Positions 1,723 to 13,110 of a stretch of 64,000 nt of DNA are shown piece by piece; the stretch's first letter is position 1; each line of letters opens with the position of its first letter. The notes below the pieces were generated by a model. The model worked only from the letters and a program-made list of their open reading frames with translations. It ran no database searches and was not told the DNA's origin. Location: assembly GCA_020429915.1 (NCBI GenBank), contig JAGQKV010000008.1, forward strand, positions 3,338-67,337. The letters are read 5' to 3'. The DNA comes from Candidatus Omnitrophota bacterium (lineage in GTDB: Bacteria > Omnitrophota > Gorgyraeia > Zapsychrales > Zapsychraceae). A program made the position numbers and the translations under genes.

Positions 1723-2217
1723 ATGTACACTCCCGACGACCAGGACAAAGTGGAAATCTTGCACGACGCGCCGCAGCCGAAGTCGACGGCGACGGACCCG
1801 GTGATCATGGCACAGGAGGACAAGCTGATCCTCGCCTACTATGAGACCGGTCCGCAGGGGCCGAGTTTCGGGGCGGACGAGGTGGCGATGGTGTGGTTCA
1901 AGGGGGTCGTCTCGCACATGTTCGGCCTGCCCACCGACGAGGTGATCGGCGGCCATCCGCTGGCCGGGCGCGGGCTGGAAAAATACCACGTGCACCGGGT
2001 TGAGAATTCCTCATGGCTGCGCGCCATGGAGAAAGTCCATTCCGTGCATCCGAAACACGACAGCGAGCGGTTCCTCAAGGGGATGAACCATTACATCTTC
2101 ACCTTCCACAACTCCACCTTCGAGTGCCTCGCCGAGAGCTTCCGCTTCAAGACGCATGAGACGCATATGGAGGCGGTGAGGCCGCGCATGTTGGAGGAAT
2201 TGCAGGAGCGAGATTGA
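1723..2217 (+). CDS. hypothetical protein
   Basis: 164-aa ORF preceded by AGGAGA RBS-like sequence (GAAAGGAGATTTTATG). Confidence 0.5.
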   Translation: MYTPDDQDKVEILHDAPQPKSTATDPVIMAQEDKLILAYYETGPQGPSFGADEVAMVWFKGVVSHMFGLPTDEVIGGHPLAGRGLEKYHVHRVENSSWLRAMEKVHSVHPKHDSERFLKGMNHYIFTFHNSTFECLAESFRFKTHETHMEAVRPRMLEELQERD

Positions 2218-2225
2218 GTGCGAGG

Positions 2226-2360
2226 GTGGTGAGTGATGTGTGGTGAGTGATGATATAACAGGCGCAGGTCGTAATACGACCATCACTCAGCACTCACCAC
2301 TTCACGCGCGGCATGGAAACATCACCCACGCGCATCGTGAAAACATCACCCACGCGCACG
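2226..2360. repeat. heptamer-periodic hairpin element, copy 1 (GTGATG type)
   Basis: Left arm GGTGGTGAGTGATGTGTGGTGAGTGATGAT (2226-2255) faces right arm CATCACTCAGCACTCACCAC (2281-2300). Loop contains the perfect 7-1-7 palindrome GGTCGTAATACGACC. Two downstream direct copies of AACATCACCCACGCGCA precede the ATG at 2374. Confidence 0.7.
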
Positions 2361-2373
2361 GAGAAAGGCAAAC

Positions 2374-3135
2374 ATGACCAAATACCCACTCCAAATACTC
2401 ATCCAACTGCTATTCACCCTAGTGATGTACGCCATGGCAGTACTATTCTTCGGCATCTCGCTGATGCCGGGGCTTGCGATTCTACTGAAGACCTGGGACG
2501 CGGTACACACCGCGTCGCTGTGGCAGAAGACGATGTGCCTGGGCTTCGCGCTGTCCGCCGGGTTTTTCCTGTTCGGGATCACGCTGGTCCTTTTGGTGGG
2601 GACGTTCCGGATGGTGTCGGGCCTGAAGCTCAAGGAGGGCGAGTACAAGATGCACGAGCTCGAGGCGTTGAAGTGGAGTTTTCTGAGCTGTCTGTATTCG
2701 ATGATCCGTTATACCTTTATCGACTTTATCCTGCTGACGCCGTTTGCGAATCTGCTGTTCCGGATGCTCGGGGCGAAGATGGGCAAGAACGTGGCGATCA
2801 ATTCGTCGTTCGTGTTCGACCATTCGCTGCTGGAGATCGACGACGGCGCGGTGATCGGCGGCGGCGCGATCATCGACGCGCACATCTTCGAGCGCGGGAA
2901 GCTCATACTAAGGAAGGTCAAGATCGGCAAACAGGCCCTGCTGGGCTCGCACTGCACCCTGATGCCGGGCTGTGAAATAGGGGACAAGGCGATCATCTCG
3001 GCGAACGCCTTGTTGCTCAAAGATTCAAAGGTGGAGCCGAGGGATATTTGGGTTGGCATCCCGGCGGAGTCTCTGCGCGCTAAGAAGCGCGCGGAGAGAA
3101 ATAAGCGCAAAGAGCGGGAGGGTGATGATACTTGA
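2374..3135 (+). CDS. hexapeptide-repeat (left-handed beta-helix) acyltransferase with N-terminal membrane segment
   Basis: C-terminal imperfect hexapeptide repeats (NVAINSSFVFDHSLLEIDDGAVIGGGAIIDAHIFERG...IGKQALLGSHCTLMPGCEIGDKAIISANALL). N-terminal 100 aa hydrophobic. Confidence 0.6.
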   Translation: MTKYPLQILIQLLFTLVMYAMAVLFFGISLMPGLAILLKTWDAVHTASLWQKTMCLGFALSAGFFLFGITLVLLVGTFRMVSGLKLKEGEYKMHELEALKWSFLSCLYSMIRYTFIDFILLTPFANLLFRMLGAKMGKNVAINSSFVFDHSLLEIDDGAVIGGGAIIDAHIFERGKLILRKVKIGKQALLGSHCTLMPGCEIGDKAIISANALLLKDSKVEPRDIWVGIPAESLRAKKRAERNKRKEREGDDT

Positions 3136-3223
3136 GTGATGATTTGACAGGCACAGGTTGTAATACGACCATCACCCAGCACTCACCACTTCTTCCACTC
3201 CATAGAACCATCACCCACGCGAA
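3121..3223. repeat. heptamer-periodic hairpin element, copy 2 (GTGATG type)
   Basis: Left arm GGTGATGATACTTGAGTGATGAT, right arm ATCACCCAGCACTCACCAC. Loop ACAGGCACAGGTTGTAATACGACC is nearly identical to the copy-1 loop. Downstream ACCATCACCCACGCGA lies before the ATG at 3235. Confidence 0.7.
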
Positions 3224-3234
3224 ATATACGCACC

Positions 3235-3699
3235 ATGAGCGACCTGATACAAGCCAACGAAACCACTCTGAAAAAAGCCGATCTGTCCGTCCGCATACTC
3301 CAGTTTGCGATCATCTTGACCGGCATCGGCTTCACCTGTATGCTGGCTTTGATCGGGGCCGCGCAGAAGTGGCCGGCATTGCTCCTGGCGGCCGGTTACA
3401 TCGTTTATCTGGTCAACGAACGCTCCGCCTTTGATCGTATCCGGGATGATATCACCCGGGAACCCGCGGCGGCCTGCAAACTCCGGTGCGTCAAACGCAC
3501 ACTGACCCAGGCCCTGGTCGGCGGGCCGGTGGTCATCGCCTTTATCGCCCTGTTCGTGCACAGCGTCAGTGATATCCCGGCGTGGACCGTGGCGCTGCCG
3601 CTGGCCGTGATGTGCGCGGCGGACTTCACCGCGGCACAGGTCCTGTTCAGAAAATTTGACGACGGTACCATTCAACCCTATCAGCAAGAGGAATCATAA
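3235..3699 (+). CDS. hypothetical membrane protein
   Basis: 154 aa with three or four predicted transmembrane helices. Stop overlaps the next start (ATAATG). Confidence 0.5.
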   Translation: MSDLIQANETTLKKADLSVRILQFAIILTGIGFTCMLALIGAAQKWPALLLAAGYIVYLVNERSAFDRIRDDITREPAAACKLRCVKRTLTQALVGGPVVIAFIALFVHSVSDIPAWTVALPLAVMCAADFTAAQVLFRKFDDGTIQPYQQEES

Positions 3700-4445
3700 T
3701 GCACATCGGCCGCACCCGTTTTCGCCGGCAAATCCTGACCGAGTTCGCCGCACCCAAGGACAAAAAGTCCGGCAAGGTTGTGATCTTTTGCGCAGGCGTG
3801 CCGGGCGCACCGGAGAAGGACGAGGTCCTCGAATACTTTGCCAGGAAGGGCTACTGGGCGTTCTTTCCGCGCTACCGCGGCTGCTGGGAGAGCCACGGAA
3901 AGTTCCTCAAGCATTCGCTCGAGTACGATGTCTTTGCCGTGATCGACGCGATGCAAAAGCGATTTAAAGATTTCTGGACGGACAAAAGTTACCGGGTGAA
4001 ACCGGAACATATCACTGTGGTGGGTTCGAGCTTCGGCGGGCCGGCCGCGATTCTGGCCACGCTGGATGAACGCGTGGACAAAGCGGTGTGCATCTCGCCG
4101 GTGGTCGACTGGGTCGCCGAGGACAAGGACGATCCGCTGGAGAATCTCTACAAACTTATCCGCAAGGCCTTCGGCGGGGTGTACCGCATCGACAAGAAGA
4201 ACTGGAACCGGCTGAAAGACGGGGATTTTTACAATCCGCTGCCGCACATCGACAAATTCGATAAAGACAAGATCATGATCTTCCACGCCGAAGACGACAC
4301 CATCGTCAAATACAAACCCGTGGCCAAATTCGCCGACAAACTCGGCTGCAAGCTGACCACCTTCGAAAAGGGAGGCCACCTGTCGTCGTCATTATTATGC
4401 AGCGCGGCGAGTTTCCGTAAGGTGGAGCGATTTCTACACAAATAA
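3699..4445 (+). CDS. alpha/beta hydrolase fold protein
   Basis: Nucleophile-elbow GxSxG (VVGSSFGGPAA). Typical size and layout for a dienelactone-hydrolase or esterase-like enzyme. Confidence 0.6.
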   Translation: MHIGRTRFRRQILTEFAAPKDKKSGKVVIFCAGVPGAPEKDEVLEYFARKGYWAFFPRYRGCWESHGKFLKHSLEYDVFAVIDAMQKRFKDFWTDKSYRVKPEHITVVGSSFGGPAAILATLDERVDKAVCISPVVDWVAEDKDDPLENLYKLIRKAFGGVYRIDKKNWNRLKDGDFYNPLPHIDKFDKDKIMIFHAEDDTIVKYKPVAKFADKLGCKLTTFEKGGHLSSSLLCSAASFRKVERFLHK

Positions 4446-4483
4446 GGGCTCGCCCATCACAACCGACAGGACATAAGGAAACA

Positions 4484-5209
4484 ATGCGCCAAATTTACGT
4501 TTTTTCAGTCATGATCCTGGTCGCCAGCATGTGCCTGGCCCGCGCGGACACCGTCCACGCCCAGGAGAAGCGCCGGGTGTTTCAGCACCGGGGGGTGTGG
4601 GTGGAGAATATCGGCGTCTGTCCCACGGAGATGACCGACCGGATTATCGATCACTTCAAAGAAAAAGGCCGGCAGGTGCGGCTGATCAATATCAATCCAT
4701 ACAACCCCAACCCAAACAAAGACTGCAAACAGGATTCGCTCTTTTTGGTGCATTTGAAAAAACGGGGCACCGAGTTCCCTTACGAAGGGTACACGCGCTA
4801 TATCGAACGCAACGGCAGTTTTATTGAGCATTCGTGGGGGGAAGTCGAGGCCCTGCCGTTTCATCTCGATGATCCGCTGCAGCGTGTCTTTGAGGTTATC
4901 AAGGGCAGCACGTTTATGACGCAGTTGAATTCACACGGCGTCCTGCTGCAAGACGGAACCCGGATCGGCAAGAATGACATGAAGGCAATCATCGAGGAAA
5001 TCCACATGGCGTACCGGCCGGGCATCGAACGGCACATCGACGGGCCGGTCCGGCTCAAGGAAGACACCGGCGGTCTGGTGACCGCTTCCTTTATGACGGG
5101 GAAGGGCCGGCCGGTATGGTACAAACTGAGCAAGGAAGCGGGGTGGTGGAGCATCCTGGACAGCTCGGAGAGCCGCGGCCGGGTGCAGATGCCGTTGCCG
5201 GGAAGTTAG
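4484..5209 (+). CDS. hypothetical secreted protein
   Basis: N-terminal signal peptide (MRQIYVFSVMILVASMCLARADTVHA). Confidence 0.5.
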   Translation: MRQIYVFSVMILVASMCLARADTVHAQEKRRVFQHRGVWVENIGVCPTEMTDRIIDHFKEKGRQVRLININPYNPNPNKDCKQDSLFLVHLKKRGTEFPYEGYTRYIERNGSFIEHSWGEVEALPFHLDDPLQRVFEVIKGSTFMTQLNSHGVLLQDGTRIGKNDMKAIIEEIHMAYRPGIERHIDGPVRLKEDTGGLVTASFMTGKGRPVWYKLSKEAGWWSILDSSESRGRVQMPLPGS

Positions 5210-5232
5210 TCGAAGCGGATTCCGTCGACGTG

Positions 5233-5365
5233 TTTAGTGATGATACAGGATGCGAGGGCATAAGGACAGTCCTGCGAAGGTGCCAGTACATTTCAACCCG
5301 CACCTGATACGATCATCACTCAGCACACATCACTCCTCCCGCAGCCTGAAGACATCACCCGGAGG
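5233..5365. repeat. heptamer-periodic hairpin element, copy 3 (GTGATG type)
   Basis: Left arm TTTAGTGATGATACAGG, right arm CCTGATACGATCATCACTCAGCACACATCAC. Inner palindrome AGGACAGTCCT. Downstream GACATCACCCGGAGG. Confidence 0.65.
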
Positions 5366-5371
5366 CAATTC

Positions 5372-5402
5372 TTGACTTTTTCCGATCCCCGGGGGCTATT
5401 AG
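5372..5402 (+). promoter_or_regulatory. candidate promoter (TTGACT - 19 nt - TATTAG) with embedded palindrome CCCCCGGGGG
   Basis: Read directly. Spacer is longer than optimal. Lies between hairpin copy 3 and the ATG at 5418. Confidence 0.25.
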
Positions 5403-5417
5403 TGCTATTCTAGTAGC

Positions 5418-5726
5418 ATGCGCATGTACCCATGCCCCTCCTGCCAACAAGACGGCATCACCTGGTTCGGCCGCCGGTATTCGGTCAAGCCGATGCCCAC
5501 CCAGTGCCGTCATTGCAAACGCCATTTCTATCCCAAGCGCCGCGCCGACAAATATCCCCGGGAACTGATCGTGATGGAAGTCCTGTTTTGGGCGGCGTTT
5601 TTGCTCGGTGTCGGATTCAAATTCATCGGCTTCTGGCGCGGCGCCCTCCTGCTGGCCGCCTACGCCTGGCTGAGCGGGGTGATTGCGGAGAAAGTGACGT
5701 ATATGGTGCCAGGTGGCGAGGAGTAG
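5418..5726 (+). CDS. small zinc-ribbon membrane protein, hypothetical
   Basis: Two CxxC pairs (CPSCQQ...CRHCKRH) followed by two hydrophobic helices. Confidence 0.45.
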   Translation: MRMYPCPSCQQDGITWFGRRYSVKPMPTQCRHCKRHFYPKRRADKYPRELIVMEVLFWAAFLLGVGFKFIGFWRGALLLAAYAWLSGVIAEKVTYMVPGGEE

Positions 5727-5735
5727 GGATCGGTG

Positions 5736-5846
5736 ATTTGTGATTTGAACAGTTTTCCAAAGTAAGTTGGGATTTCACTCATAAATTTTATCCTAATTCC
5801 AAATTGGCCCAACGGGAGTAATTCCCAATCACTAATCACCAATCCC
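5736..5846. repeat. heptamer-periodic hairpin element, copy 4 (GTGATT type)
   Basis: Left arm GGGATCGGTGATTTGTGATTTG, right arm ATTCCCAATCACTAATCACCAATCCC. Loop carries AGTTGGGATT and TTGGCCCAACGGG. Confidence 0.65.
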
Positions 5847-5902
5847 TAACAGGCCTCAAAGTCCGCTATATGCTATACTATATCCACACCAAGGAGCCTG
5901 AT

Positions 5903-6331
5903 ATGCGTTCATATTTGATATTACTCGCCGTAGTGAGCCTGTGCGCCGGCTGCGCGACGATGCATGAGCCGGAACTGACTGCGGACCAGGTCAGGCAGAT
6001 CGATCTGGCAACAGGCGACCAGACGGCCACGGTGCTGGTCAAGGCCCGGCCGGCCGGACAGCAGCAGCTGACGACGTTTTATCAGATCGATATTCCGGAC
6101 CTCGAACCGGTCCTCGTCTTTAAGGAAAGCAATACCGTGCTGCGGCTCGACGCGGGCACGGTCCCGGTGACGATCACGGCGGTGACCGGCAAGGACAAGT
6201 TCGCGGCCCGCGGTGACTTCTTCGGCAAACCCAGCCGCCGCGTTCTCAACCTCAAACCCGGCGACCGCGTTATCTTGGAGTACACGGGACCGTATTGGAT
6301 GGGGGATTCTGGCAGGCTATACGCGAAGTGA
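5903..6331 (+). CDS. hypothetical lipoprotein
   Basis: Strong RBS AAGGAG 6 nt before the ATG at 5903. Lipobox LCAGC. The upstream in-frame ATG at 5870 lacks an RBS. Confidence 0.5.
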   Translation: MRSYLILLAVVSLCAGCATMHEPELTADQVRQIDLATGDQTATVLVKARPAGQQQLTTFYQIDIPDLEPVLVFKESNTVLRLDAGTVPVTITAVTGKDKFAARGDFFGKPSRRVLNLKPGDRVILEYTGPYWMGDSGRLYAK

Positions 6332-6347
6332 GAGTCAGGGGGGTGAG

Positions 6348-6517
6348 TTGGGATTGGTGATTAGGGATTGGGGATTTGGAGATTGGACCGTTACTCAATG
6401 CAGCGATTTGGGGGCGGTCGCCATTCCGAATGCGGATTACAAGATTGTAATCTCCACACCCACGGCACATCCTGAAAGCAAACTGTTCAAATCCCCAATC
6501 ACAAATCACTAATCCCC
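6348..6517. repeat. heptamer-periodic hairpin element, copy 5 (GTGATT type)
   Basis: Left arm GTTGGGATTGGTGATTAGGGATTGGGGATTTGGAGATTGG (five 7-bp units), right arm CAAATCCCCAATCACAAATCACTAATCCCC. Loop contains the perfect palindrome GGATTACAAGATTGTAATCC. Confidence 0.7.
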
Positions 6518-6543
6518 AGTAAGCTCTATTCAAAACTATCCGC

Positions 6544-6978
6544 ATGACCCTACAGCTACATCCGACATTTCTACAATTCCTCCCCCACTTCTGGCAAAAC
6601 TACTATCTCGCCACCCCGCTGTTCGTGGTGCTCGACGCGATTTTCGGCATCAGTCTGCGGATTCCGTTTCTCGACAACGCGCCTGTGCTAAAATACATTT
6701 ACTACGCGATGATTTTTTGCTTCGGCCTCGTGATACGCCGCTGGCCGGACACGGCCAAGGGGATTTCGCTGGCCGAATGTTCGGTGTGCGTGACGCTGAC
6801 CTGCGTCGGCTTTTTGGTCCCGCTGTACTGTCACGACTGGAGCCTGGAGGCGATCGAGCACGCGCGGGATTATTACAACTGGAAAACGATTACCAACTTC
6901 GCGGTGACTGGCGGGTTGTTGTATTATTGGTTTTATCAGGCGCAGATTAGATTTAAAATTAACGGTACTGTGGAATGA
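6544..6978 (+). CDS. hypothetical membrane protein
   Basis: 144 aa with four predicted transmembrane helices. Moderately AT-rich. Confidence 0.45.
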   Translation: MTLQLHPTFLQFLPHFWQNYYLATPLFVVLDAIFGISLRIPFLDNAPVLKYIYYAMIFCFGLVIRRWPDTAKGISLAECSVCVTLTCVGFLVPLYCHDWSLEAIEHARDYYNWKTITNFAVTGGLLYYWFYQAQIRFKINGTVE

Positions 6979-7098
6979 ATGATGGTATGGCTTGCATGGG
7001 CGAATGTTAGGTACGATTTTCTCTCATTAAACTGAATTTATAATTGAACCGGTTGTTCTACTGTGACGCCTGGTTTAAATTCGACTCAGTAAGGCTTT

Positions 7099-7578
7099 AT
7101 GAACAATCAGGAGATTAAAAAGGAAATAAACGCGTTTGTGCTTTTGATTGAACACGGCGCCGGAAGTTCAGTCGAGAACTTCAAGGAACTGCTACGTGTG
7201 CTCGACGCTTTGGCATTGGCAATACATTATGTGAAATATACCTACGACGAAAATGAATTACCCGATCCACCCCGGAGGAGTTACGAGGATGACCGGAAGC
7301 TGGCGACTGAGCGATTTCCTGATTTTGGTCATTACAACCGTGTACTCAATGTCGTGGAAAAATTAGGGCACCCAGATTTCGGAATGGGTGACGCTTTCGA
7401 TGATATAACGGATATTTATGGAGAAATGAAAATGGTACAGTGGCGATGGGACCATAATGGTCCGGATGATGCCTTGTGGTGTTTTAGCGACATGTATGGT
7501 TTTCATTGGAAACGGCATTTAAGAAACTTACAGCTCTATTTGTGTGAATGGATGGACTCAGATGGCGACGGAAAGTAG
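7099..7578 (+). CDS. hypothetical protein (AT-rich, acidic, Trp-rich; immunity-protein-like)
   Basis: 159 aa. Visibly lower GC than its surroundings. No enzymatic motifs. Confidence 0.45.
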   Translation: MNNQEIKKEINAFVLLIEHGAGSSVENFKELLRVLDALALAIHYVKYTYDENELPDPPRRSYEDDRKLATERFPDFGHYNRVLNVVEKLGHPDFGMGDAFDDITDIYGEMKMVQWRWDHNGPDDALWCFSDMYGFHWKRHLRNLQLYLCEWMDSDGDGK

Positions 7579-7996
7579 ACTTTTGTTTGTCGATTTACAG
7601 AACGATGAAGACGCCATGCATATTGCCGTGTGGGCGGCCAACGGTAATTTTCAGGGGATGCAGGATATCTATATTTACCGGGAACAGCTGAATGACTGGG
7701 CCTGCGAGCTGACTGAATTCGGAAAGACACCCCAAGACAAGGCGGTCTTTGAATACGGCAGCGACGATCCCAACTTTTATGCCCGGCTGCGCCTGACCGC
7801 CTTCATCTACGAATCCCGGGGCGCCTCTGCGCTGGAGGTGTTGATCGACAATCATTCCGAAAGCCCGTACCAATGCCGGGTGGAATTCTGTATCTTCTGC
7901 GCCCCGGCCGAACTCAATGAATTAGGCGCGATGATTCTCGATTGGGACACCGGTAAGAACCTGATGATGGAATGGACCGTGGAGAATTCGGTGTGA
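7562..7996 (+). CDS. hypothetical protein (acidic; immunity-protein-like). Start is either 7544 or 7562
   Basis: ORF 7544-7996. Starting at the second ATG (7562) avoids most of the overlap with the upstream gene. Confidence 0.4.
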   Translation: MATESRLLFVDLQNDEDAMHIAVWAANGNFQGMQDIYIYREQLNDWACELTEFGKTPQDKAVFEYGSDDPNFYARLRLTAFIYESRGASALEVLIDNHSESPYQCRVEFCIFCAPAELNELGAMILDWDTGKNLMMEWTVENSV

Positions 7997-9387
7997 AGAG
8001 GGCCGTGATCATCATCTTGGGCGTGTGCATCCTGTTCGGGGCGCTGGCCGTTACGCGCAATCCGTACAACCGCGATTGGACGCGCGGTGAACTCAGTCAC
8101 GTGGTGGCTTACAATCTGTGCACCACCGGAAAAATGTTCCCCGACGCCCCGTACGTCGCGCGGCCGCCGGGCTACATTTATTTTATCGCCGCGGTGTTCT
8201 CCGCGTCCGAATTTCTAGCCCCGCAATTTTGCTTTATGGAGACGCCGGAAGGTCATGTCCCGGTGAAAACCAATTTGCTGGTCGCGCTCTTCATCGCGCA
8301 GATATTCGTCCACGCGGCGAACGCCGTCCTTCTTTATTTATGGGCAGGCAGGTTGATGGACCGGCGGATGGCGCTGGTGATCGCGTTGTGTTTCGGCACG
8401 AGCGTCTACTGGTTGTTGCAAATCGCGTCGGTCCATTATGCCGTATGGCATCTTTTCTGGGTGCTTGCGGCCGGATATACCTGGACGCTGGCCTGGCAGG
8501 AACGCGAGCGCTCCCTGATGATGGGGCTGAGCGGACTTCTGTGGGGAATCGCCACGCTGGTGCGTCCGGTGACGCTGTTGTTGCCGTTGTTCGCCGTCCC
8601 GGCGGCCGTGATCGCGGGCCGGGGGGACAAACACTGGGTGATCCGTTTCACCCTGCTGATCATTCTGGGCATGGCTGTGTTCATCGGGCCGAACACGCTG
8701 AGGAATTACCGGCTGACCGGCCGCTGGATTCCGGTCAACGCACAGGCCGCGGCGGCGCTGTGGGGCGGGACCGAACCGCATCCGGGAATCTCTCCCAAGC
8801 ACTATTTCTGGCCGCGGCTGCTGCCGGAATTCGAGCGGATCTATCGCGGCGTGACCGGCGACAATTATACCTATGCGGGTTATGTGCGGCACAACCTCGC
8901 TCTGGAAGATGCCTTCCGCCGTGAGGCGTGGCGCAATATCCGGGAACGGCCCGGTGTTTACGCCGGAAATGTCCTGACAAATTTAAAACTCTTCGCCGTG
9001 GGTGTCGACTCCGGAATCCTGAACGGGTATCTGGCCCGCAGACATGGGGAGGACAGAACGGCGACGACGCGGCCTTTCGACGCGCTAATGATTTTACTGA
9101 CGGTGCTGGCCGGACTGGCGGGGTACGCGGCGTTACGGGCTCGGGATACCCGGCTGCTGGTCCCGGCGGCGGTCCTGTTGTGCTACGGACTGGGCCATGC
9201 CCTGACTTATCTGGACATCAATTATTATTATTTCAAGCAGCCGTTCCTGTATCTGGGGGCGGGTTATCTGCTCAGCCGGTTGTGCTGTTCGTCCGACCGG
9301 CCGGGAGCGGGGTGGCGGATCGCGGGATACGTCATGACGGGCGCCGTGATTTGTGTAACGGCGATGTCCTGGAGGATATTCTTCTAG
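7993..9387 (+). CDS. polytopic membrane glycosyltransferase candidate (ArnT/PMT-like, GT39/GT83-type)
   Basis: About 12 transmembrane helices. PPGYIYFIAAVF-type motif near the first loop. GTG start at 7993 with GGAGA RBS; an alternative ATG start lies at 7972. Confidence 0.45.
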   Translation: MKRAVIIILGVCILFGALAVTRNPYNRDWTRGELSHVVAYNLCTTGKMFPDAPYVARPPGYIYFIAAVFSASEFLAPQFCFMETPEGHVPVKTNLLVALFIAQIFVHAANAVLLYLWAGRLMDRRMALVIALCFGTSVYWLLQIASVHYAVWHLFWVLAAGYTWTLAWQERERSLMMGLSGLLWGIATLVRPVTLLLPLFAVPAAVIAGRGDKHWVIRFTLLIILGMAVFIGPNTLRNYRLTGRWIPVNAQAAAALWGGTEPHPGISPKHYFWPRLLPEFERIYRGVTGDNYTYAGYVRHNLALEDAFRREAWRNIRERPGVYAGNVLTNLKLFAVGVDSGILNGYLARRHGEDRTATTRPFDALMILLTVLAGLAGYAALRARDTRLLVPAAVLLCYGLGHALTYLDINYYYFKQPFLYLGAGYLLSRLCCSSDRPGAGWRIAGYVMTGAVICVTAMSWRIFF

Positions 9388-9506
9388 GAGGTCCGGCGGA
9401 CGGACCGTTACCGTCCCATATAATTGCTGTCACTTTTCACCGGCATATCACTTCAAAGTATTTTTAAAACTTTCCTCACCCGGCGATATTTCAGGGCCAT
9501 CATCCG

Positions 9507-10442
9507 CTAGTCATCATCCTCTGTCGTACTGAATAAAGCCCAGATCGGCCGGTGATCCGACACTGCCAGTTTGGCGCGGTTGTCGTCGTTGCCGAACATG
9601 GTTTCGTCGAAATTCCACACGCCGACCTGGCCGGTGTACTCGCGGACGTAGCGGGTCTCGAACCAGAAATTGTCGTAGAGACTCGTATCGGTGACGGTGG
9701 TGCGGACCGGATCGTTCAGCAAGGCCGTCATCGTGGGCAGGCGGTTCAGGTTCGACCAGCCGCGGTCGTCGGGCCCGAAATTGAAGTCGCCTAACAGGAT
9801 GATATCCTGTTCGCCGGCATCGGCGTTTTGCGCGTATTCATAGACCTTGGCGAGGTGTTCCAGTTCGGGACGGCGCTCGGATTCGCTTTTACCGTAAAGC
9901 AGGTGAATGGTCAGCAGGGTGAAGTCAAAGGCCCCGGCGCGGAAGGAAGCGAAATAGGGTTCGCGGATGAACTCGTCGCGCTCATCCGGATACAGCTGTC
10001 CGGGCGTTGTCTGGGCGACCTTGTCGGCACGGTAGAGAAAGGCGTAGCGTTCCTTGACCCCGCGGCCGACCGGCGCGCTGATGTCGTAGGCGGCCGGATA
10101 ACCGCGGCGTTCAAGCAGGGCCACGGTGCGGCGCAGGACGTCTTCGTCGCGCAGTTCCTGGATGGCGGTTATGTCGCACGGTTCGAGCAGATTTGTGATA
10201 TAATCCAGCTCGTTGTCGTCGCGGCTCTTATTGGAGAAGACGCGGATGTTGAAGGAACACACCCGCAGGTCGTCGCCGCCCGCCATGGCGGTGACAGGCG
10301 CGGGCGCCGAAGCGGTCCGTTGTTCCAGAAAGCGCTCGATATCCGCGCGCGGCGCAAAGGCCAGACCGATGGCGGCAATCAGCGCCAACAGCAATAAGGC
10401 GTCGGTCAGTCGGGATGATTTCGGTTTGGGACGACGGGGCAT
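9507..10442 (-). CDS. secreted endonuclease/exonuclease/phosphatase (EEP, DNase I-like) family protein
   Basis: Signal peptide or TM at the N-terminus. EEP catalytic motifs include LRVCSFNIR, ILLGDFN and the C-terminal SDHRPIWA. Confidence 0.65.
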   Translation of the reverse strand: MPRRPKPKSSRLTDALLLLALIAAIGLAFAPRADIERFLEQRTASAPAPVTAMAGGDDLRVCSFNIRVFSNKSRDDNELDYITNLLEPCDITAIQELRDEDVLRRTVALLERRGYPAAYDISAPVGRGVKERYAFLYRADKVAQTTPGQLYPDERDEFIREPYFASFRAGAFDFTLLTIHLLYGKSESERRPELEHLAKVYEYAQNADAGEQDIILLGDFNFGPDDRGWSNLNRLPTMTALLNDPVRTTVTDTSLYDNFWFETRYVREYTGQVGVWNFDETMFGNDDNRAKLAVSDHRPIWALFSTTEDDD

Positions 10443-10512
10443 GGTGCTTTTTATTGTAAGTTACGTAAGGCATGAAGGAAGGAAAAAGGTGATTATTTTG
10501 ACTATCCGCTTG

Positions 10513-10659
10513 GGTGCTGAGTGATGTGTGATGAGTGCTGATCGCGGGGGACGAACTGACATATTTGCCGATACACCGAATACGACCATCACCCATCACC
10601 GCATGGACTGCTTGAGTACATCACTCATCACCCTTAAATCCAATCATCACACCCGGAGG
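10513..10659. repeat. heptamer-periodic hairpin element, copy 6 (GTGATG type)
   Basis: Left arm GGTGCTGAGTGATGTGTGATGAGTGCTGAT, right arm CCGAATACGACCATCACCCATCACC. Then ACATCACTCATCACCC and ATCATCACACCCGGAGG precede the ATG at 10665. Confidence 0.7.
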
Positions 10660-10664
10660 AAAAT

Positions 10665-11027
10665 ATGAAATACATCGACGGCTTTCTAATCCCCGTCCCC
10701 AAAAAGAAACTGGACGAATACAAAAAACTCGCTCGCAAGGCGGGGAAGATCTGGATGGAATATGGCGCGCTGGATTATGTGGAATGTGTTGCCGACGACG
10801 TGAAGAAGGGGAAATGGACGTCGTTCCCGCAGGCGGTCAAACAGAAGGACGGCGAGACCGTTGTCTTTTCCTATATCATCTACAAATCCCGCGCCCACCG
10901 TGACCGGGTTAATAAAAAGGTCATGGCCGACCCGCGCCTGATGGCGATGTGCGACCCCGGCAACATGCCCTTCGACGGCAAGCGAATGATGTGGGGGGGA
11001 TTTAAGTCGATGGTGGATATGGCGTGA
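10665..11027 (+). CDS. DUF1428-like small protein
   Basis: About 120 aa. N-terminus MKYIDGFLIPVPKKKLDEYKK resembles DUF1428 (YbaA-like) proteins. Assignment is from memory only. Confidence 0.45.
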   Translation: MKYIDGFLIPVPKKKLDEYKKLARKAGKIWMEYGALDYVECVADDVKKGKWTSFPQAVKQKDGETVVFSYIIYKSRAHRDRVNKKVMADPRLMAMCDPGNMPFDGKRMMWGGFKSMVDMA

Positions 11028-11030
11028 TAA

Positions 11031-11195
11031 GGGATGAGTGATGTGTGATGAGTGATGATCGCAGGAAGCGCTGGTCACAGGGAGTGTTGGTCGCAGGGAG
11101 TGTTGCTCGTGGGAAGTACTGGTCAAATGTACCGAATACGATCATCACTCACCACTTCATACACTTCCTGACGACATCACTCACCACCCGGGAGA
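11031..11195. repeat. heptamer-periodic hairpin element, copy 7 (GTGATG type)
   Basis: Left arm GGGATGAGTGATGTGTGATGAGTGATGAT, right arm ACCGAATACGATCATCACTCACCAC. Loop holds the 16-nt direct repeat GTC(A/G)CAGGGAGTGTTG. Downstream GACATCACTCACCACCCGGGAG precedes the ATG at 11200. Confidence 0.7.
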
Positions 11196-11199
11196 ATAA

Positions 11200-11763
11200 A
11201 TGAGAAAACCAATATTACCGATAACCGCTATCCTGATCCTCCTCGCGCACACGCACGCCCGCGCGCAAGTCGCCATTACAACAGTCCCCACCCAACCACC
11301 TTCCGGGCAAACCGACGGGCAGCATCAGGTGAAACGCAATTTCTCGCACCGCGACCTGCCGCCCTTGAATCTCGATATGTTCGCGCTGAGCACGCAGACC
11401 GGCGGAGAGTTTTACTTTTGGGGGGAAGGCGAGTTCGGTTCCGAGGCGGCGAGCAAGGTGATCGCCGAATCGGTCCTGTCGACACAGACGCTCCTCTATA
11501 AGTACGGGGATATCGACGGGACATGCGAGATCCCGTTTTACGTGGAGAAGTACAAGTACCACTTTACCTTCTTCACCGGTATTCAATCCAAAGACCGTAT
11601 CGAATTCATCCAACCCGACGGCAGGGTCCTCAAGGACGGCGAAGGCGTGATCGTTTATCCCTTTCAACGTATGCTCATCGCCACGGTCAACGCGCCGCAG
11701 GCGGGGGAGTGGACCATCCGACTGTCGGGCAGGGGGAAGTATTTGGTTTCAGTGAGAAAGTGA
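11200..11763 (+). CDS. hypothetical secreted protein
   Basis: Signal peptide MRKPILPITAILILLAHTHARA. Confidence 0.5.
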   Translation: MRKPILPITAILILLAHTHARAQVAITTVPTQPPSGQTDGQHQVKRNFSHRDLPPLNLDMFALSTQTGGEFYFWGEGEFGSEAASKVIAESVLSTQTLLYKYGDIDGTCEIPFYVEKYKYHFTFFTGIQSKDRIEFIQPDGRVLKDGEGVIVYPFQRMLIATVNAPQAGEWTIRLSGRGKYLVSVRK

Positions 11764-11777
11764 ACTTCAAGGGGCGA

Positions 11778-11887
11778 GAGTCGGGATACGTGATACGGGA
11801 TATGTGATACGAACAGTCTGCCGTCAGGAATATTTACGGAGTTTACCTAAGAACTTGGCCCAACGGGCCGTCAACGTATCCCGACTG
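11778..11887. repeat. heptamer-periodic hairpin element, copy 8 (GTGATAC type)
   Basis: Left arm GAGTCGGGATACGTGATACGGGATATGTGATACG (four 7-bp units), right arm CGTATCCCGACTG. Loop contains TTGGCCCAACGGGCC, shared with copy 4. Confidence 0.65.
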
Positions 11888-11918
11888 GCCATCCTATCGC
11901 TCCTGAAAGGTTTTAACA

Positions 11919-12923
11919 TTGGTGTTATTGATTGTTAATATTATCATCGCCCTCGTCCTCGCCGGCGGTTGGCTGTTCATGCTGCTGATCCCCGTCGGTA
12001 TCTGCGCGCAGACTGAGGAGCCGATGGATCTGAAAGATTTTAAGCCGCACGTCTTTCGTTGTCCGAAATGCGCCAAGGAATGGGCGCCGCTGCGGCTGCT
12101 CAAACACGTGACCTTTGATCACAAGGAACGCATTGAACGCAAGGTGATCCCGCGGATCGCGGACTGCAACGAATGCGGTGGCCGCGGGGTCGTCTCCGGC
12201 GGAATGACGTCCATGCCGCACGCGTTCGAGTTCGACCGGGAGATGCCCGTGCAAACCACGGTCGGCTGTTCGGTGTGCGGCGGGTCGGGCCGGGTGCCGC
12301 ATCCCGACGGCGATGAAGTGCGGGTGCGGAAGATCCGTTCCTGCAAACACCGCTATACCTATCAATGTCTGTCCTGCACCGGGAAGTTCGACAGTGAATA
12401 CCGGGTGAATTGGCACAAACCGAAACCGTCCAAGCCGCATGATTCGACTTACGACGGCGTCATTCAGATGGGCATGGCCCGGGGGATGGCCGGTGTTACG
12501 GCCCTGGTGTTCGGAGCGGCACTGTATACGGTTATCCGCACGGCGATGTCCACGTATCCGGAATATCCGTTGAAAGAAGATATGATGTGGGCCCTGAATC
12601 GGCTCCTGTTCAAGGGGGCGGGCGTGACGCTGTTGGCGATTCCCGGCGGAGCGCTGTTCGGATTGGTGTGCGGTGTGATCAATCTGCCGCTGGCCCGGTT
12701 TTTGAAACGCAAAGGATTGCCAAACGCGCTGGTCTGCGGTACAGTGGCGGGTACGGGATTGCTGGCCGCTGCCGATGCGTTTTTTCTCACTGGGCAGGTC
12801 CCGGTGTACGCTGCGGATCCCCAGGGCTGGGTGACTGCCTACGGAACCGCCGCCGCCCTGGCCGCGACGGCCTTGCTGTTGGGGCAGGGAGTGTGGGCTC
12901 TGGCGCAGAGATGGAATTTATAA
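11919..12923 (+). CDS. hypothetical membrane protein with three zinc-ribbon-like CxxC pairs
   Basis: TTG (11919) or GTG (11922) start. N-terminal TM, then CPKC/CNEC/CSVC/CLSC pairs, then about four C-terminal transmembrane helices. Confidence 0.45.
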   Translation: MVLLIVNIIIALVLAGGWLFMLLIPVGICAQTEEPMDLKDFKPHVFRCPKCAKEWAPLRLLKHVTFDHKERIERKVIPRIADCNECGGRGVVSGGMTSMPHAFEFDREMPVQTTVGCSVCGGSGRVPHPDGDEVRVRKIRSCKHRYTYQCLSCTGKFDSEYRVNWHKPKPSKPHDSTYDGVIQMGMARGMAGVTALVFGAALYTVIRTAMSTYPEYPLKEDMMWALNRLLFKGAGVTLLAIPGGALFGLVCGVINLPLARFLKRKGLPNALVCGTVAGTGLLAAADAFFLTGQVPVYAADPQGWVTAYGTAAALAATALLLGQGVWALAQRWNL

Positions 12924-12924
12924 G

Positions 12925-13028
12925 TGATGTGTGATGAGTGGTCCCTCGACTCCGCTCGGGATTGAACTTGCCGATCATTGCAGATGGTGAGCGAAGTCGA
13001 ACTATGAGGGGTGATCGTATTCGGTGCG
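12925..13028. repeat. heptamer-periodic hairpin element, copy 9 (GTGATG type, right arm inverted)
   Basis: Left arm GTGATGTGTGATGAGTGG. The distal arm GGTGATCGTATTCGGTG is the reverse complement of the CACCGAATACGATCACC motif seen in copies 6 and 7. Confidence 0.55.
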
Positions 13029-13048
13029 TCGGCTTCCTAAAAAGAACT

Positions 13049-13058
13049 TGTATAATTT
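13049..13058 (+). promoter_or_regulatory. candidate extended -10 element (TTGTATAAT) upstream of the hydrolase gene
   Basis: TG directly 5' of TATAAT. No good -35 element. Confidence 0.25.
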
Positions 13059-13110
13059 TCCAGCGAACAGCACTCAACCCTCACGCACGACTTGGCCGCA
13101 TCACCCCAGG

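What the first reader, a model, noticed from the sequence alone, without database searches (positions are those of the whole stretch)
2226..13028. Novel repeat family: hairpins whose arms are tandem heptamers (G-N-GAT-N-N)n facing (CATCAC-type)n
All nine elements share one plan. The left arm has two to five tandem 7-bp units, for example GTGATGT-GTGGTGA-GTGATGA, GGTGATT-AGGGATT-GGGGATT or GGGATAC-GTGATAC-GGGATAT-GTGATAC. After a 25-90 nt loop comes the reverse-complement arm (T-CATCAC, T-CAGCAC, T-CACCAC units, or CAAATC / AATCAC / AATCACC units). Three sub-families (GTGATG, GTGATT, GTGATAC) share the GNGAT core. A 7-bp periodicity in both arms of a hairpin is not a feature of classic REP/BIME, Correia, ERIC or attC elements. 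It suggests repeated binding of a protein with a 7-bp footprint on DNA, or an RNA structure with phased motifs.
Basis: seen in the sequence. Interest (0 to 1): 0.75.

Follow-up and report, generated by a model that had tools for sequence, protein, structure and literature searches.

The report
Heptamer-armed intergenic hairpin repeats
Nine real hairpin-forming repeats, with arms made of 7-base units, separate the genes of a variable region in an uncultured Omnitrophota bacterium; they are local families of a widespread bacterial repeat class that has been noticed before but never explained, not a wholly new kind of element.

Summary
All 12 period-7 arrays of the 64-kb window lie between 2.2 and 12.9 kb. 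They form nine intergenic hairpins, each with a G-rich heptamer arm first and its complement second.

They fall into two repeat families:
- Type 1 (E1, E2, E3, E6, E7, E9) has GTGATGA arms, conserved inner motifs, an exactly 19-nt spacer splitting the 3' arm, and a distal CATCACCC unit next to the downstream start codon.
- Type 2 (E4, E5, E8) has a conserved core (GAACAGT…GGCCCAACGG). Its arms use different heptamers in different copies, always matched between the two arms.

Related Omnitrophota contigs show empty and filled sites, flipped loops, 7-nt indels, and gene gains or losses next to elements.

The class is not new. Intergenic heptamer repeats, including convergent inverted pairs just after stop codons, are published for Xanthomonas, cyanobacteria and Beggiatoaceae. 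A scan of one genome per species found (GTGANNN)n hairpins in at least ten phyla, always G-arm first (36:0; 63:5 for any heptamer).

They are not attC sites, REPs, intrinsic terminators or Rfam families.

Best reading: copied, slippage-prone DNA hairpin repeats that are tolerated, or used as mRNA punctuation, between co-oriented genes. Their function is inferred, not shown.

The parts
2224..2356 (+). E1, type 1. G-arm 2224-2253 (GTGGTGA GTGATGT GTGGTGA GTGATGA), loop with the inner motif TAATACGAC, C-arm 2280-2300 (3 units), 19-nt spacer 2301-2319, and distal CATCACCCACGCG at 2320-2332, duplicated at 2344-2356. Lies between the stop codon at 2215-2217 and the ATG at 2374.
3120..3221 (+). E2, type 1. 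G-arm 3120-3142 overlaps the upstream stop codon (3133-3135). C-arm 3169-3189 (3 units), spacer 3190-3208, distal unit 3209-3221. It is 85% identical to E1.
5230..5365 (+). E3, type 1 with a short G-arm. G-arm 5230-5243 (2 units), C-arm 5313-5333 (3 units), spacer 5334-5352, distal CATCACCCGGAGG at 5353-5365.
5726..5849 (+). E4, type 2. G-arm 5726-5747 (GGTGATT TGTGATT) starts at the upstream stop codon. The core runs GAACAGT…TTGGCCCAACGGG. C-arm 5824-5849 (AATCACT AATCACC AATCCCT).
   Evidence: (z -4.1)
6338..6517 (+). E5, type 2 with its core in the flipped orientation. G-arm 6338-6386 (GGGATTG GTGATTA GGGATTG GGGATTT), C-arm 6488-6517.
10512..10659 (+). E6, type 1, between divergent genes (the EEP gene on the minus strand and DUF1428 on the plus strand). 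G-arm 10512-10541 (4 units), C-arm 10586-10599 (2 units), spacer 10600-10618, distal 2 units 10619-10633, and a third CATCACACCC abutting the GGAGG ribosome-binding site at 10645-10659. Orthologous copies occur in L116 and L118.
11031..11189 (+). E7, type 1. G-arm 11031-11058 starts 3 nt after the DUF1428 stop codon. The loop carries a 16-nt tandem repeat. C-arm 11142-11155 (2 units), spacer 11156-11174, distal 2 units 11175-11189 abutting the ribosome-binding site.
11780..11885 (+). E8, type 2. G-arm 11780-11810 (GGGATAC GTGATAC GGGATAT GTGATAC), core GAACAGT…TTGGCCCAACGGG, and a C-arm reduced to one unit (GTATCCC, 11876-11885). The orthologue in L118 is inverted and keeps four units in each arm.
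   Evidence: (z -3.6)
12924..13107 (+). E9, a composite or degenerate type 1. G-arm 12924-12942 directly follows the stop codon. The inner motif is flipped (13008-13026). Degenerate C-arm 13068-13084, distal CATCACCCC at 13099-13107 before the ATG at 13111.
4453..4464 (+). A solo CCCATCAC motif about 20 nt upstream of the ATG at 4484, with no hairpin. It may be a remnant of a distal unit.

Best explanation
The nine elements are non-coding DNA repeats of an uncultured Omnitrophota bacterium. Each is an imperfect palindrome of 100-185 bp. Its arms are short tandem arrays of 7-bp units, with G-rich GTGANNN or GGGATNN units on the 5' arm and their complements on the 3' arm.

**Shown**
- They belong to two families of homologous copies with conserved cores, so they spread by copying rather than arising independently at each site.
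- Arms change in 7-nt steps.
- Loops are found inverted between orthologous copies.
- Both arms of a copy always carry the same heptamer type, even where homologous cores carry different heptamers.
- Sites are empty or filled in relatives, and several gene gains or losses lie next to elements.
- The elements sit between co-oriented genes, starting 0-23 nt after the upstream stop codon.
- They have no U-tract.
- Type 1 is asymmetric and always points its split arm at the downstream start codon.

**Inferred**
- Arrays grow and shrink by replication slippage.
- The two arms are homogenised by recombination or template switching within the element, which would also flip the loop.
- Only the G-arm-first arrangement persists. 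One reason may be that it presents stop codons in all reading frames to ribosomes arriving from either side. Another may be that the C-rich arm is never left unpaired in the transcript.
- In the polycistronic mRNA the elements fold into long hairpins. These would act, at most, as REP/BIME-like punctuation: protecting the 3' end of the upstream cistron and insulating or coupling translation of the next one. They would not act as terminators.

They are a lineage-specific elaboration of the widespread class of convergent intergenic heptamer-repeat pairs.
For: **Clustering and periodicity.**

**Hairpins and matched arms.**

**Type-1 homology.** The alignment shows an invariant inner motif, 2 or 3 C-arm units differing by a 7-nt indel, an exactly 19-nt spacer in every aligned copy, and a distal CATCACCC unit. 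Full-length profile hits occur only in the window island, L116 and L118. The two-tier stem is 93.5% paired.

**Type-2 core with switching arm heptamers.** The arms are GTGATTT, GGGATTG, GGGATAC, GGGTGTA and GTAAGAA in different copies.

**Relatives.**
- L116 has a type-1 element where the window has type-2 E5.
- L116 has two elements plus an extra 916-aa gene where the window has none.
- L118 lacks DUF1428 with E7 and g11919 with E9, and has inverted copies of E6 and E8.
- L119 and L120 have no elements at these sites.
- E1/E2 (85%) and E6/E7 (80%) flank single genes and are each other's closest copies.

**Class-wide features.**
- 107 loci in at least ten phyla carry the motif.
- The G-arm comes first in 36 loci against 0, and in 63 adjacent array pairs against 5.
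- 75% of hairpins lie between co-oriented ORFs, and the array starts around the upstream stop codon.
- All three frames carry stops on 226 of 334 G strands against 29 of 334 C strands.

**Stops in the window.** Stops cover all three frames within 32 nt of the upstream stop in 5 of 9 elements. A frameshifted DUF1428 allele ends at the first TGA of E7.

**Not terminators.** No stem plus T-run occurs at any element. Another Omnitrophota genome carries heptamer hairpins between infA and rpmJ.

**Literature.** PMC4692102 and PMC4679880.
Against: - No expression data exist, so every functional step is inference.
- Only 64 kb of a genome of about 2 Mb was seen. The clustering in the island may not represent the whole genome.
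- No transposase or recombinase was found that could copy the elements.
- No target-site duplication could be defined.
- The stop-codon explanation of polarity cannot be general. Xanthomonas GGGAATC pairs have the same polarity without stop codons (PMC4692102). E2, E5 and E8 do not cover all frames quickly.
- The exact 19-nt spacer and the constant orientation of type 1 towards the downstream gene suggest a specific function that a purely selfish repeat would not need.
- Fold z-scores of type 1 are modest.
- In some genomes the two arrays are not complementary at all (L019).
Confidence: 0.5

Rival explanations
1. The elements are primarily cis-acting RNA structures. The hairpin closes the whole intergenic region and brings the upstream stop codon next to the downstream ribosome-binding site. 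A ribosome terminating 0-15 nt before the G-arm melts the outer stem (GGGUGAUG with CAUCACCC). This frees the region next to the Shine-Dalgarno sequence and couples translation of the two genes. Alternatively, the long stem with its 19-nt bulge is an RNase III-type processing site that separates cistrons.
For: - The type-1 asymmetry is always co-oriented with the downstream gene.
- The distal CATCACCC unit abuts GGAGG or GGGAG in E3, E6 and E7.
- The G-arm begins at or within a few nt of the stop codon.
- The two-tier stem with a bulge of fixed length is conserved.
- 75% of such hairpins lie between co-oriented genes.
Against: - There is no excess of G·U-compatible mismatches on the sense strand (49 against 67).
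- Thermodynamic z-scores of type-1 copies are modest.
- The structure is strand-symmetric, and loops are found flipped. Both fit DNA-level dynamics.
- E2 and E5 precede genes with no recognisable Shine-Dalgarno sequence.
- No expression data exist.
Confidence: 0.17
2. The heptamers are phased binding sites for a protein or machine that reads GTGA/GUGA every 7 nt on DNA or RNA. One candidate is a ring-shaped RNA-binding protein in the manner of HutP, which reads (UAG N4)3. Another is the 3' tail of 16S rRNA, since GAUCAC is complementary to GUGAUC.
For: - Across at least ten phyla the conserved part of the unit is GTGA and the other three positions vary.
- Polarity is strict relative to incoming transcription and translation.
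- In some loci the two arrays are not complementary yet are still phased (L019). This argues that the motif, not the pairing, is what is kept.
Against: - No candidate binding protein was found in the window.
- Type-2 elements keep their core while swapping heptamers that lack GTGA, such as GGGATAC, GGGTGTA and GTAAGAA. A single reader of GTGA is therefore unlikely.
- The set of genomes was selected with a GTGATG pattern, which biases the motif census.
Confidence: 0.1
3. The hairpins are recombination sites of a gene-cassette system analogous to an integron. In this reading, single genes together with their downstream hairpin are inserted or excised at resident hairpins.
For: - The region is a co-oriented array of small unrelated genes, each followed by a hairpin.
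- DUF1428 with E7 and g11919 with E9 are present in the window but absent in L118.
- L116 has an extra 916-aa gene preceded by two elements.
- Elements flanking single genes are each other's closest copies.
- The closest outside relatives of DUF1428 are Burkholderiales proteins, which suggests acquisition.
Against: - No integrase or other recombinase was found in the window, and none is listed in the gene-call Pfam entries for the 3.4 kb upstream.
- No RYYYAAC…GTTRRRY core pairs exist in the elements.
- The PMT_2 gene presence/absence difference is not flanked by elements in the window.
- g11919 sits next to the same hydrolase in a more distant relative, so loss by recombination between repeats explains the pattern as well as insertion does.
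- Burkholderiales DUF1428 genes carry no such elements.
- In other phyla the hairpins sit next to housekeeping genes.
Confidence: 0.1
4. The elements are bidirectional transcription terminators or attenuators that work without a U-tract.
For: - They are long hairpins directly after stop codons.
- The architecture is symmetric and reads the same on both strands.
Against: - No T-run follows any element, and loops are 27-125 nt.
- Only 11% of such hairpins lie between convergent genes, and 75% lie between co-oriented genes.
- In another Omnitrophota genome they lie inside the infA-rpmJ ribosomal-protein gene cluster.
Confidence: 0.05
5. The pattern is chance, or is ordinary neutral simple-sequence repeats that arose independently at each site.
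For: Heptamer repeats are common in bacteria and prone to slippage (PMC4679880, citing Mrazek 2007).
Against: - Twelve arrays were observed against 1.7 expected, and all lie in 17% of the window.
- The non-repetitive cores and the 19-nt spacer are conserved between copies.
Confidence: 0.02

Closest known systems
Convergent inverted pairs of heptameric repeats in Xanthomonas, (GGGAATC)n / (GGGANTN)n (Rehm et al. 2015, PMC4692102)
   Same: - Tandem 7-nt G-rich units, usually about 4.
- Intergenic, mostly between co-oriented ORFs.
- The G-rich strand is on the sense strand within 50 bp of, or overlapping, the stop codon.
- 70-75 sites per genome occur as two arrays in convergent orientation that can form stem-loops.
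- Length varies between related strains.
   Different: - The Xanthomonas units have GGG tracts and form G-quadruplexes. GTGATGA cannot.
- No conserved non-repetitive core, 19-nt spacer or distal unit was described there.
- The Xanthomonas units contain no stop codons.
Cyanobacterial STRR heptamers (cited in PMC4692102 for Calothrix PCC 7601; named from my own knowledge of Mazel et al. 1990) and long simple sequence repeats with 7-nt units (Mrazek 2007, as summarised in PMC4679880)
   Same: - Tandem heptanucleotides.
- Intergenic and lineage-specific.
- Slippage-prone, with function unknown.
   Different: They are mostly described as direct arrays, not as matched arms of one element with a conserved core.
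TAACTGA direct repeats of Beggiatoaceae, cyanobacteria and Bacteroidetes (MacGregor 2015, PMC4679880)
   Same: - Intergenic heptamers with a cross-phylum distribution.
- Indels in 7-nt steps.
- Stop codons in all frames in the forward orientation, which limits where they can sit.
   Different: - They are almost always direct repeats just upstream of start codons. Only one inverted set was found among 170.
- They are not predicted to form a hairpin.
REP / BIME / REPIN elements of proteobacteria
   Same: - Extragenic hairpin-forming repeats between co-transcribed genes.
- They are copied within a genome.
- By my own knowledge, they are proposed to stabilise upstream mRNA and, when within about 15 nt of a stop codon, to interfere with termination of translation.
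   Different: - REPs are single imperfect palindromes of 20-40 nt with no internal 7-nt periodicity.
- REPs are mobilised by RAYT transposases. None was seen here.
Integron attC sites and cassette arrays
   Same: - Imperfect inverted repeats that follow each of a series of small, unrelated, co-oriented genes.
- Gene content differs between relatives at these sites.
   Different: - There are no R''/R' core sites.
- There is no integrase nearby.
- The arms are periodic.
- The same class occurs next to housekeeping genes in other phyla.
HutP / TRAP-type recognition of phased RNA triplets (from my own knowledge)
   Same: A 7-nt spacing of a short conserved core, (UAG N4)3 for HutP. This is the only well-studied precedent for reading RNA with a 7-nt period.
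   Different: - No such protein was identified here.
- The conserved core differs.
- Arm heptamers change between homologous copies.

Membership tests
Intergenic heptanucleotide repeat pairs (long simple sequence repeats / STRR / Xanthomonas type) | Tandem units of 7 nt, at least 2-3 copies | tested here: met
   There are 12 arrays, and none for periods 8-12.
Intergenic heptanucleotide repeat pairs (long simple sequence repeats / STRR / Xanthomonas type) | Intergenic, with the G-rich strand on the sense strand at or just after the upstream stop codon | tested here: met
   In the window the G-arm starts 0-23 nt after, or overlaps, the stop codon. Across phyla the distances centre on 0.
Intergenic heptanucleotide repeat pairs (long simple sequence repeats / STRR / Xanthomonas type) | Two arrays in convergent (G-first) orientation able to form a stem-loop | tested here: met
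   for the window. Searches (36:0; 63:5) for 107 loci.
Intergenic heptanucleotide repeat pairs (long simple sequence repeats / STRR / Xanthomonas type) | Copy number varies in 7-nt steps between copies or relatives | tested here: met
   C-arms of 2 or 3 units differ by a 7-column gap in A1. Nitrospira L031 has one extra unit compared with L013.
Intergenic heptanucleotide repeat pairs (long simple sequence repeats / STRR / Xanthomonas type) | G-quadruplex-forming G tracts (specific to the Xanthomonas/Nostoc subclass) | tested here: not met
   Type-1 units (GTGATGA) have no GGG runs. Only E5 has several.
REP / BIME / REPIN | Unit is a 20-40-nt imperfect palindrome with a conserved terminal tetranucleotide and no internal tandem periodicity | tested here: not met
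   The arms are tandem heptamers and the elements are 100-185 bp with long loops.
REP / BIME / REPIN | Cognate RAYT (Y1 transposase) gene in the genome | not testable with these tools
   None was found among the window ORFs scanned. The rest of the roughly 2-Mb genome could not be read.
Integron attC / cassette array | Inverse core RYYYAAC and core GTTRRRY at the two ends | tested here: not met
   No such pair exists in any of the nine elements.
Integron attC / cassette array | Integron integrase next to the array | tested here: not met
   No tyrosine recombinase was found in the window. None is listed in the gene-call Pfam entries for the 3.4 kb upstream.
Integron attC / cassette array | Co-oriented, unrelated small genes, each followed by a site, with cassette content differing between relatives | tested here: met
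   The same pattern is also explained by deletion between repeats.
MITE | Presence/absence polymorphism at orthologous sites | tested here: met
   The site between the EEP gene and g11200 is empty in L119 and filled in L118 and the window. Window 6979-7098 is empty where L116 is filled.
MITE | Target-site duplication flanking terminal inverted repeats | tested here: inconclusive
   The empty and filled sites come from genomes too diverged (77-84% amino-acid identity in the flanking gene) to align the junctions.
MITE | Autonomous partner element with the same terminal repeats | not testable with these tools
   The whole genome is not available. The JGI metagenome scan gave only chance hits.
Intrinsic (Rho-independent) terminator | GC-rich stem, loop of 3-8 nt, followed by a U-tract | tested here: not met
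   None of the 27 terminator-like sites coincides with an element. Element loops are 27-125 nt and no T-run follows.
Any Rfam RNA family | Match to a curated covariance model | tested here: not met
   There were no matches at gathering score over the window, and none at E<=1 over 2000-13300.

The most novel reading that the evidence does not exclude
The heptamer-armed hairpins are the recombination sites of a gene-capture system with no integrase nearby, and so far undescribed. In this reading, a hairpin-specific enzyme encoded elsewhere in the genome recognises the conserved cores: the type-1 inner motifs with the 19-nt bulge, and the type-2 GAACAGT…GGCCCAACGG core. That enzyme inserts and excises single genes together with their downstream hairpin. 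This would explain why the elements concentrate in a variable island, why elements flanking single genes are each other's closest copies, and why loops flip.
Probability: 0.1. Interest if true: 0.85.

Novelty: new variant of a known kind. Interest (0 to 1): 0.5.

Why it matters
Heptanucleotide repeats are the commonest long simple repeats in many bacterial genomes. They have had no accepted explanation since they were first seen in cyanobacteria.

This window adds three things that make the question more tractable:
- **A defined element.** The element has recognisable parts: matched heptamer arms, conserved cores, an exact 19-nt bulge and a distal unit beside the start codon. These parts can be mutated one at a time.
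- **A recurring configuration.** The same GTGA-based, G-arm-first, stop-codon-hugging arrangement recurs in at least ten phyla with essentially no exceptions. This points to a general constraint from translation, Rho or DNA repair, not to lineage history.
- **Dynamics in relatives.** Comparative snapshots show these hairpins turning over, flipping and sitting at points of gene gain or loss.

If the constraint were identified, it would explain a widespread feature of bacterial intergenic DNA. It would also improve annotation of gene ends in uncultured phyla, where such repeats also break assemblies.

Tried and rejected
- **Rfam.** Gathering threshold over the window and E<=1 over the region gave no match.
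- **Integron attC sites.** No core pairs and no integrase.
- **Intrinsic terminators.** None coincide with the elements.
- **JGI metagenome scan** with the type-1 motif ATACGAYCATCACYCANCAC. The 18 hits all sit in sequence with no heptamer-hairpin context, so I read them as chance matches. This lineage is not in that collection.
- **Viral contig scan** with the G-arm pattern. Of the 23 hits, 22 fall in what looks like one conserved phage ORF and none is in a hairpin.
- **Cassette travelling across phyla with its hairpins.** The closest Burkholderiales DUF1428 genes have intergenic gaps of 25-60 nt and no elements.
- **Strain-level variation.** All contigs of the same strain are 99.9-100% identical, with no indels in the elements. 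Heptamer copy-number polymorphism within the population could therefore not be measured.
- **Test for RNA-level selection** through sense-strand G·U bias. No bias was found.
- **Gene-as-unit model** (a C-array, a gene, then a G-array acting as terminal repeats). Heptamer types match within each intergenic element in 9 of 9 cases, but across a gene only sometimes.
- **Resemblance of TAATACGAC to the T7 promoter.** The match is 9 nt, occurs only in E1 and E2, and is expected by chance at roughly 0.1.
- **Target-site duplications.** The junctions are too diverged to call.

Full report

Yes. Tandem Repeats Finder lists period-7 or period-14 arrays at 2226-2252, 5733-5747, 5827-5849, 6342-6386, 6488-6514, 10514-10541, 10586-10600, 11024-11058 and 11782-11811. 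Elsewhere in the 64 kb it lists only two trivial 2.1-copy rows. A simple period scan (at least 80% self-match at lag 7 over 21 nt) finds 12 arrays, all between 2233 and 12940. It finds none for periods 8 to 12. Fifty locally shuffled windows give a mean of 1.7 arrays and a maximum of 5.

Each of the nine intergenic regions folds into a long hairpin joining a G-rich arm to a C-rich arm. Against dinucleotide shuffles the z-scores are -4.1 (E4), -3.6 (E8), -2.9 (E1), -1.9 (E2) and -0.9 (E3). The sixth slice in that call, E6, was cut inside its distal arm and is not informative.

Cross-pairing every left arm with every right arm gives three compatibility groups, and every element is matched within its group. 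With group sizes 6, 2 and 1, my own arithmetic puts the chance of that at about 0.004.

- E3, E8 and E9 are periodic in only one arm.
- Loops reach about 125 nt.
- E9 ends near 13107.

**2. Context**

The window comes from an uncultured 'Candidatus Omnitrophica bacterium'. The same proteins occur on an NCBI contig of 2.0 Mb.

The elements lie between small, co-oriented, functionally unrelated genes: a hexapeptide transferase, two alpha/beta hydrolases, DUF1428 and several hypothetical membrane or lipoproteins. E6 is the exception and lies between divergent genes.

The remaining 51 kb holds housekeeping genes (RtcB, PFK, LptF/G, Maf, Pta-AckA and others) and no period-7 array. No integrase, transposase or other recombinase was found in any ORF scanned. 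None is listed in the gene-call Pfam entries for the 3.4 kb upstream of the window.

**3. Anatomy: two element families**

*Type 1 (E1, E2, E3, E6, E7; E9 is a degenerate or composite copy).*
- The 5' arm has up to four units of GTG[A/G/C]TG[A/T].
- The loop is bordered by conserved motifs: GATGAT-ACAGGnGCGCrGG on the left and CCGAATACGAyCATCAC on the right.
- The 3' arm is split. Two or three CAC-units are followed by a spacer of exactly 19 nt. The spacer has variable, pyrimidine-rich sequence and is 19 nt in all nine aligned copies from the window and L116. By my count from the printed sequence, the tenth copy, L118a, has the same spacer.
- After the spacer come one or two further units ending in CATCACCC.
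- In most copies, 3 proximal units go with 1 distal unit, and 2 with 2, so the total matches the four units of the left arm.
- With the loops trimmed, most copies fold into the same two-tier stem with the 19-nt stretch bulged on the 3' side.
- The consensus has 17 pairs and 93.5% of cells are paired. Slid controls give 27-64%. Covariation is weak: 0.111 against 0.063 ± 0.017, with 10 of 500 shuffles as high. It comes mainly from the variable fourth position of the unit (AU, GC, CG and GU pairs).
- The distal unit lies 5-40 nt before the downstream start codon. In E3, E6 and E7 it abuts GGAGG or GGGAG.
- A sequence profile of the right half finds full-length matches only in the window island (5 copies), L116 (4) and L118 (1), always pointing at the downstream gene. 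In other phyla only the heptamer part matches.

*Type 2 (E4, E5 flipped, E8).* These copies share GAACAGTyTGC at one loop border and TTGGCCCAACGGG at the other. Their arms differ: GTGATTT in E4, GGGATTG/GTGATTA in E5 and GGGATAC/GTGATAC in E8. Related contigs carry similar loop-border motifs with GGGATAC (L118), GGGTGTA (L116) and GTAAGAA (L168) arms. In every copy both arms carry the same unit.

**4. Behaviour in relatives**

Contigs of the same strain from many samples are identical. More distant relatives, at 77-89% amino-acid identity in the EEP gene, are informative:
- The site after the orthologue of 5870-6331 holds type-2 E5 in the window but a type-1 element in L116.
- After the orthologue of 6544-6978 the window has an AT-rich spacer. 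L116 has a type-1 element, a type-2 element and an extra 916-aa DUF2339 gene.
- L118 has one type-1 element between the EEP gene and the 11200 orthologue. The window and L116 have E6, then DUF1428, and then a further element (E7 in the window; an E9-like left end in L116).
- L118 has one type-2 element between the 11200 orthologue and the hydrolase. The window has E8, g11919 and E9.
- L119 and L120 have no elements at these sites.
- The L118 copies of E6 and E8 have their loops inverted relative to the window.

E1/E2 (85%) and E6/E7 (80%) each flank a single gene and are each other's most similar copies. In a more distant relative (L168), g11919 is again next to the hydrolase, separated by a type-2 element with GTAAGAA arms. 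Loss by recombination between repeats is therefore as good an explanation as insertion. The PMT_2 gene presence/absence difference is not flanked by elements in the window.

**5. The wider class**

A scan of one genome per species for AGTGATGTGTGRTGAGTG returned 107 loci. They come from Nitrospira, Pyrinomonadaceae and other Acidobacteriota, Bacteroidales, Chloroflexota, Calditrichota, Cloacimonadota, Omnitrophota, Verrucomicrobiota, Latescibacterota and others. Many of them are (GTGANNN)n – loop – (NNNTCAC)n hairpins between genes.

- **Polarity.** Of 93 loci with enough flank, 36 have a phased C-arm within 260 nt downstream of the G-arm and none has one upstream. Counting all period-7 arrays of any sequence, adjacent pairs are G-then-C 63 times and C-then-G 5 times. 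In at least two of the five exceptions a short ORF lies between the two arrays.
- **Neighbours.** Of 56 hairpins with ORFs on both sides, 42 lie between co-oriented genes, 8 between divergent genes and 6 between convergent genes. The G-array starts between about -21 and +24 nt of the upstream stop codon in most cases.
- **Unit sequence.** The conserved part of the unit is GTGA.
- **Stop codons.** All three frames carry stops on the G strand of 226 of 334 arrays, against 29 of 334 on the C strand.
- **Pairing quality.** Mismatches between arms show no excess of sense-strand G·U (49 against 67).
- **Slippage.** Orthologous Nitrospira hairpins differ by single 7-nt units. In one species the two arrays are different heptamers that cannot pair (L019).
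- **Location in an essential gene cluster.** Another Omnitrophota genome (L047) has 12 arrays of many different heptamers in 8 kb. By my reading of the sequence, one nested hairpin lies between infA and rpmJ.

**6. Literature**

Heptanucleotide units are the most abundant long simple repeats in many prokaryotes, and slippage was the proposed cause (Mrazek 2007, as summarised in PMC4679880).

In Xanthomonas, 183-186 (GGGAATC)n/(GGGANTN)n sites per genome are intergenic and mostly between aligned ORFs. [quoted passage not shown] In 70-75 cases they occur as two arrays in convergent orientation that can form stem-loops. That paper interprets them as quadruplex-forming sequences (PMC4692102).

TAACTGA repeats of Beggiatoaceae, cyanobacteria and Bacteroidetes were noted to put stop codons in all frames (PMC4679880).

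I found no paper on GTGATGA-type heptamers, on Nitrospira or Omnitrophota repeats, or on the universal G-first polarity. The library does not cover subscription journals.

**7. What it most likely is and does**

*Shown.* The elements are homologous copies of two families. Their arms change by whole heptamers. Arms within a copy stay matched. Loops flip. Sites turn over. The elements hug stop codons. Type 1 is polar towards the downstream gene. They lack terminator features.

*Inferred.* Slippage changes copy number. Recombination or template switching between the inverted arms keeps them alike and flips the loop. The G-first arrangement survives for one or both of two reasons. First, it stops any incoming reading frame within a few codons; an example is the frameshifted DUF1428 allele that ends at the first TGA of E7. 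Second, the C-rich, G-free arm is paired as soon as it is transcribed, so it offers no loading site to Rho. Rho's preference for C-rich, G-poor unstructured RNA is established knowledge that I state from memory. The stop-codon argument cannot be the whole story, because the Xanthomonas units have the same polarity without stops.

As RNA the elements would be long intercistronic hairpins. By analogy with REP/BIME elements they could protect the upstream message and modulate termination or re-initiation of translation. This analogy comes from my own knowledge, not a test here. I put 0.5 on this composite reading.

The rival readings, each with its confidence, are:
- a dedicated RNA device for translational coupling or processing (0.17);
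- a phased binding array (0.10);
- cassette recombination sites (0.10);
- U-tract-less terminators (0.05);
- chance (0.02).

**8. Novelty and verdict**

The kind is known but unexplained. The Omnitrophota families are, as far as I could find, undescribed. So are the split arm with its exact 19-nt bulge, the conserved cores with swapping heptamers, and the cross-phylum GTGA, G-first rule.

I rate this a new variant of a known kind, with interest 0.5. The most novel reading still open is a hairpin-based gene-capture system without a nearby integrase (probability about 0.1).

Noticed in passing
window 11050-11109: The loop of E7 contains a 16-nt tandem repeat, GAGTGTTGGTCGCAGG, in 3.8 copies. No other copy of the family has this repeat.
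   Followed up: no
window 2303-2366: The distal unit of E1 (AAACATCACCCACGCGCA…) is duplicated as a 24-nt tandem repeat. E1 therefore has two CATCACCCACGCG motifs before the start codon.
   Followed up: partly
window 2265-2273 and 3154-3162: The inner motif of E1 and E2 reads TAATACGAC, identical to the first nine bases of the phage T7 promoter, and is followed by CATCACTCAG. By my rough estimate a match of this kind is expected by chance at about 0.1, and the other copies read GAATACGA(C/T).
   Followed up: partly
L167 4480-4560 (= window 10960-11040): A contig from run SRR23924734 has a 1-nt deletion in the G7 run near the end of DUF1428. The shifted frame runs into E7 and stops at the first TGA of the G-arm, giving a 123-aa product. 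This could be an assembly error.
   Followed up: yes
window 10665-11027: Outside this lineage, the closest named relatives of the DUF1428 protein are Burkholderiales proteins (75% amino-acid identity for the closest named hit). L118 and L119 have no DUF1428 gene between the EEP gene and g11200. Together this suggests horizontal acquisition.
   Followed up: partly
L047 1860-2810: In another Omnitrophota genome (JACPQZ010000076.1), heptamer arrays of several unrelated sequences form nested hairpins. The arrays include CGTGAAT, CGTATCT, CGACGAA and GCACTCT. By my reading of the sequence, the hairpins lie between infA and rpmJ and next to rpsM, inside the ribosomal-protein gene cluster.
   Followed up: partly
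L019, L039, L092 (Nitrospira): Three Nitrospira species have a heptamer hairpin at what looks like the same site, upstream of a conserved gene that I take from its opening codons to be purD (not checked). The C-arms differ: (CCCCTTA)4, mixed TCAC units, and (CCATCAC)4. In L019 the two arms are not complementary.
   Followed up: no
window 4453-4464: A solo CCCATCAC motif lies about 20 nt upstream of the start of the 241-aa gene, with no hairpin. It may be the remnant of a type-1 distal unit.
   Followed up: no
window 6979-7098 and 6001-8000: The one long intergenic spacer of the island without an element is AT-rich. The surrounding 2 kb has the second-lowest G+C of the window's 2-kb bins (0.509, against 0.55-0.61 for most other bins).
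   Followed up: no
window 15352-15912, 22508-23974, 17009-21043, 32891-37195: Just outside the island lie an RNA 2'-phosphotransferase gene (Tpt1/KptA) and an RtcB RNA ligase gene. There are also two very large ORFs (1344 and 1434 aa) with no Pfam match.
   Followed up: no
L144-L166 (viral contigs): In 22 of the 23 viral hits, the 18-nt G-arm pattern lies in what looks like one conserved phage ORF (my translation of the region reads …YGGRGIVMCDEW…). This is coincidental and unrelated to the hairpins.
   Followed up: yes
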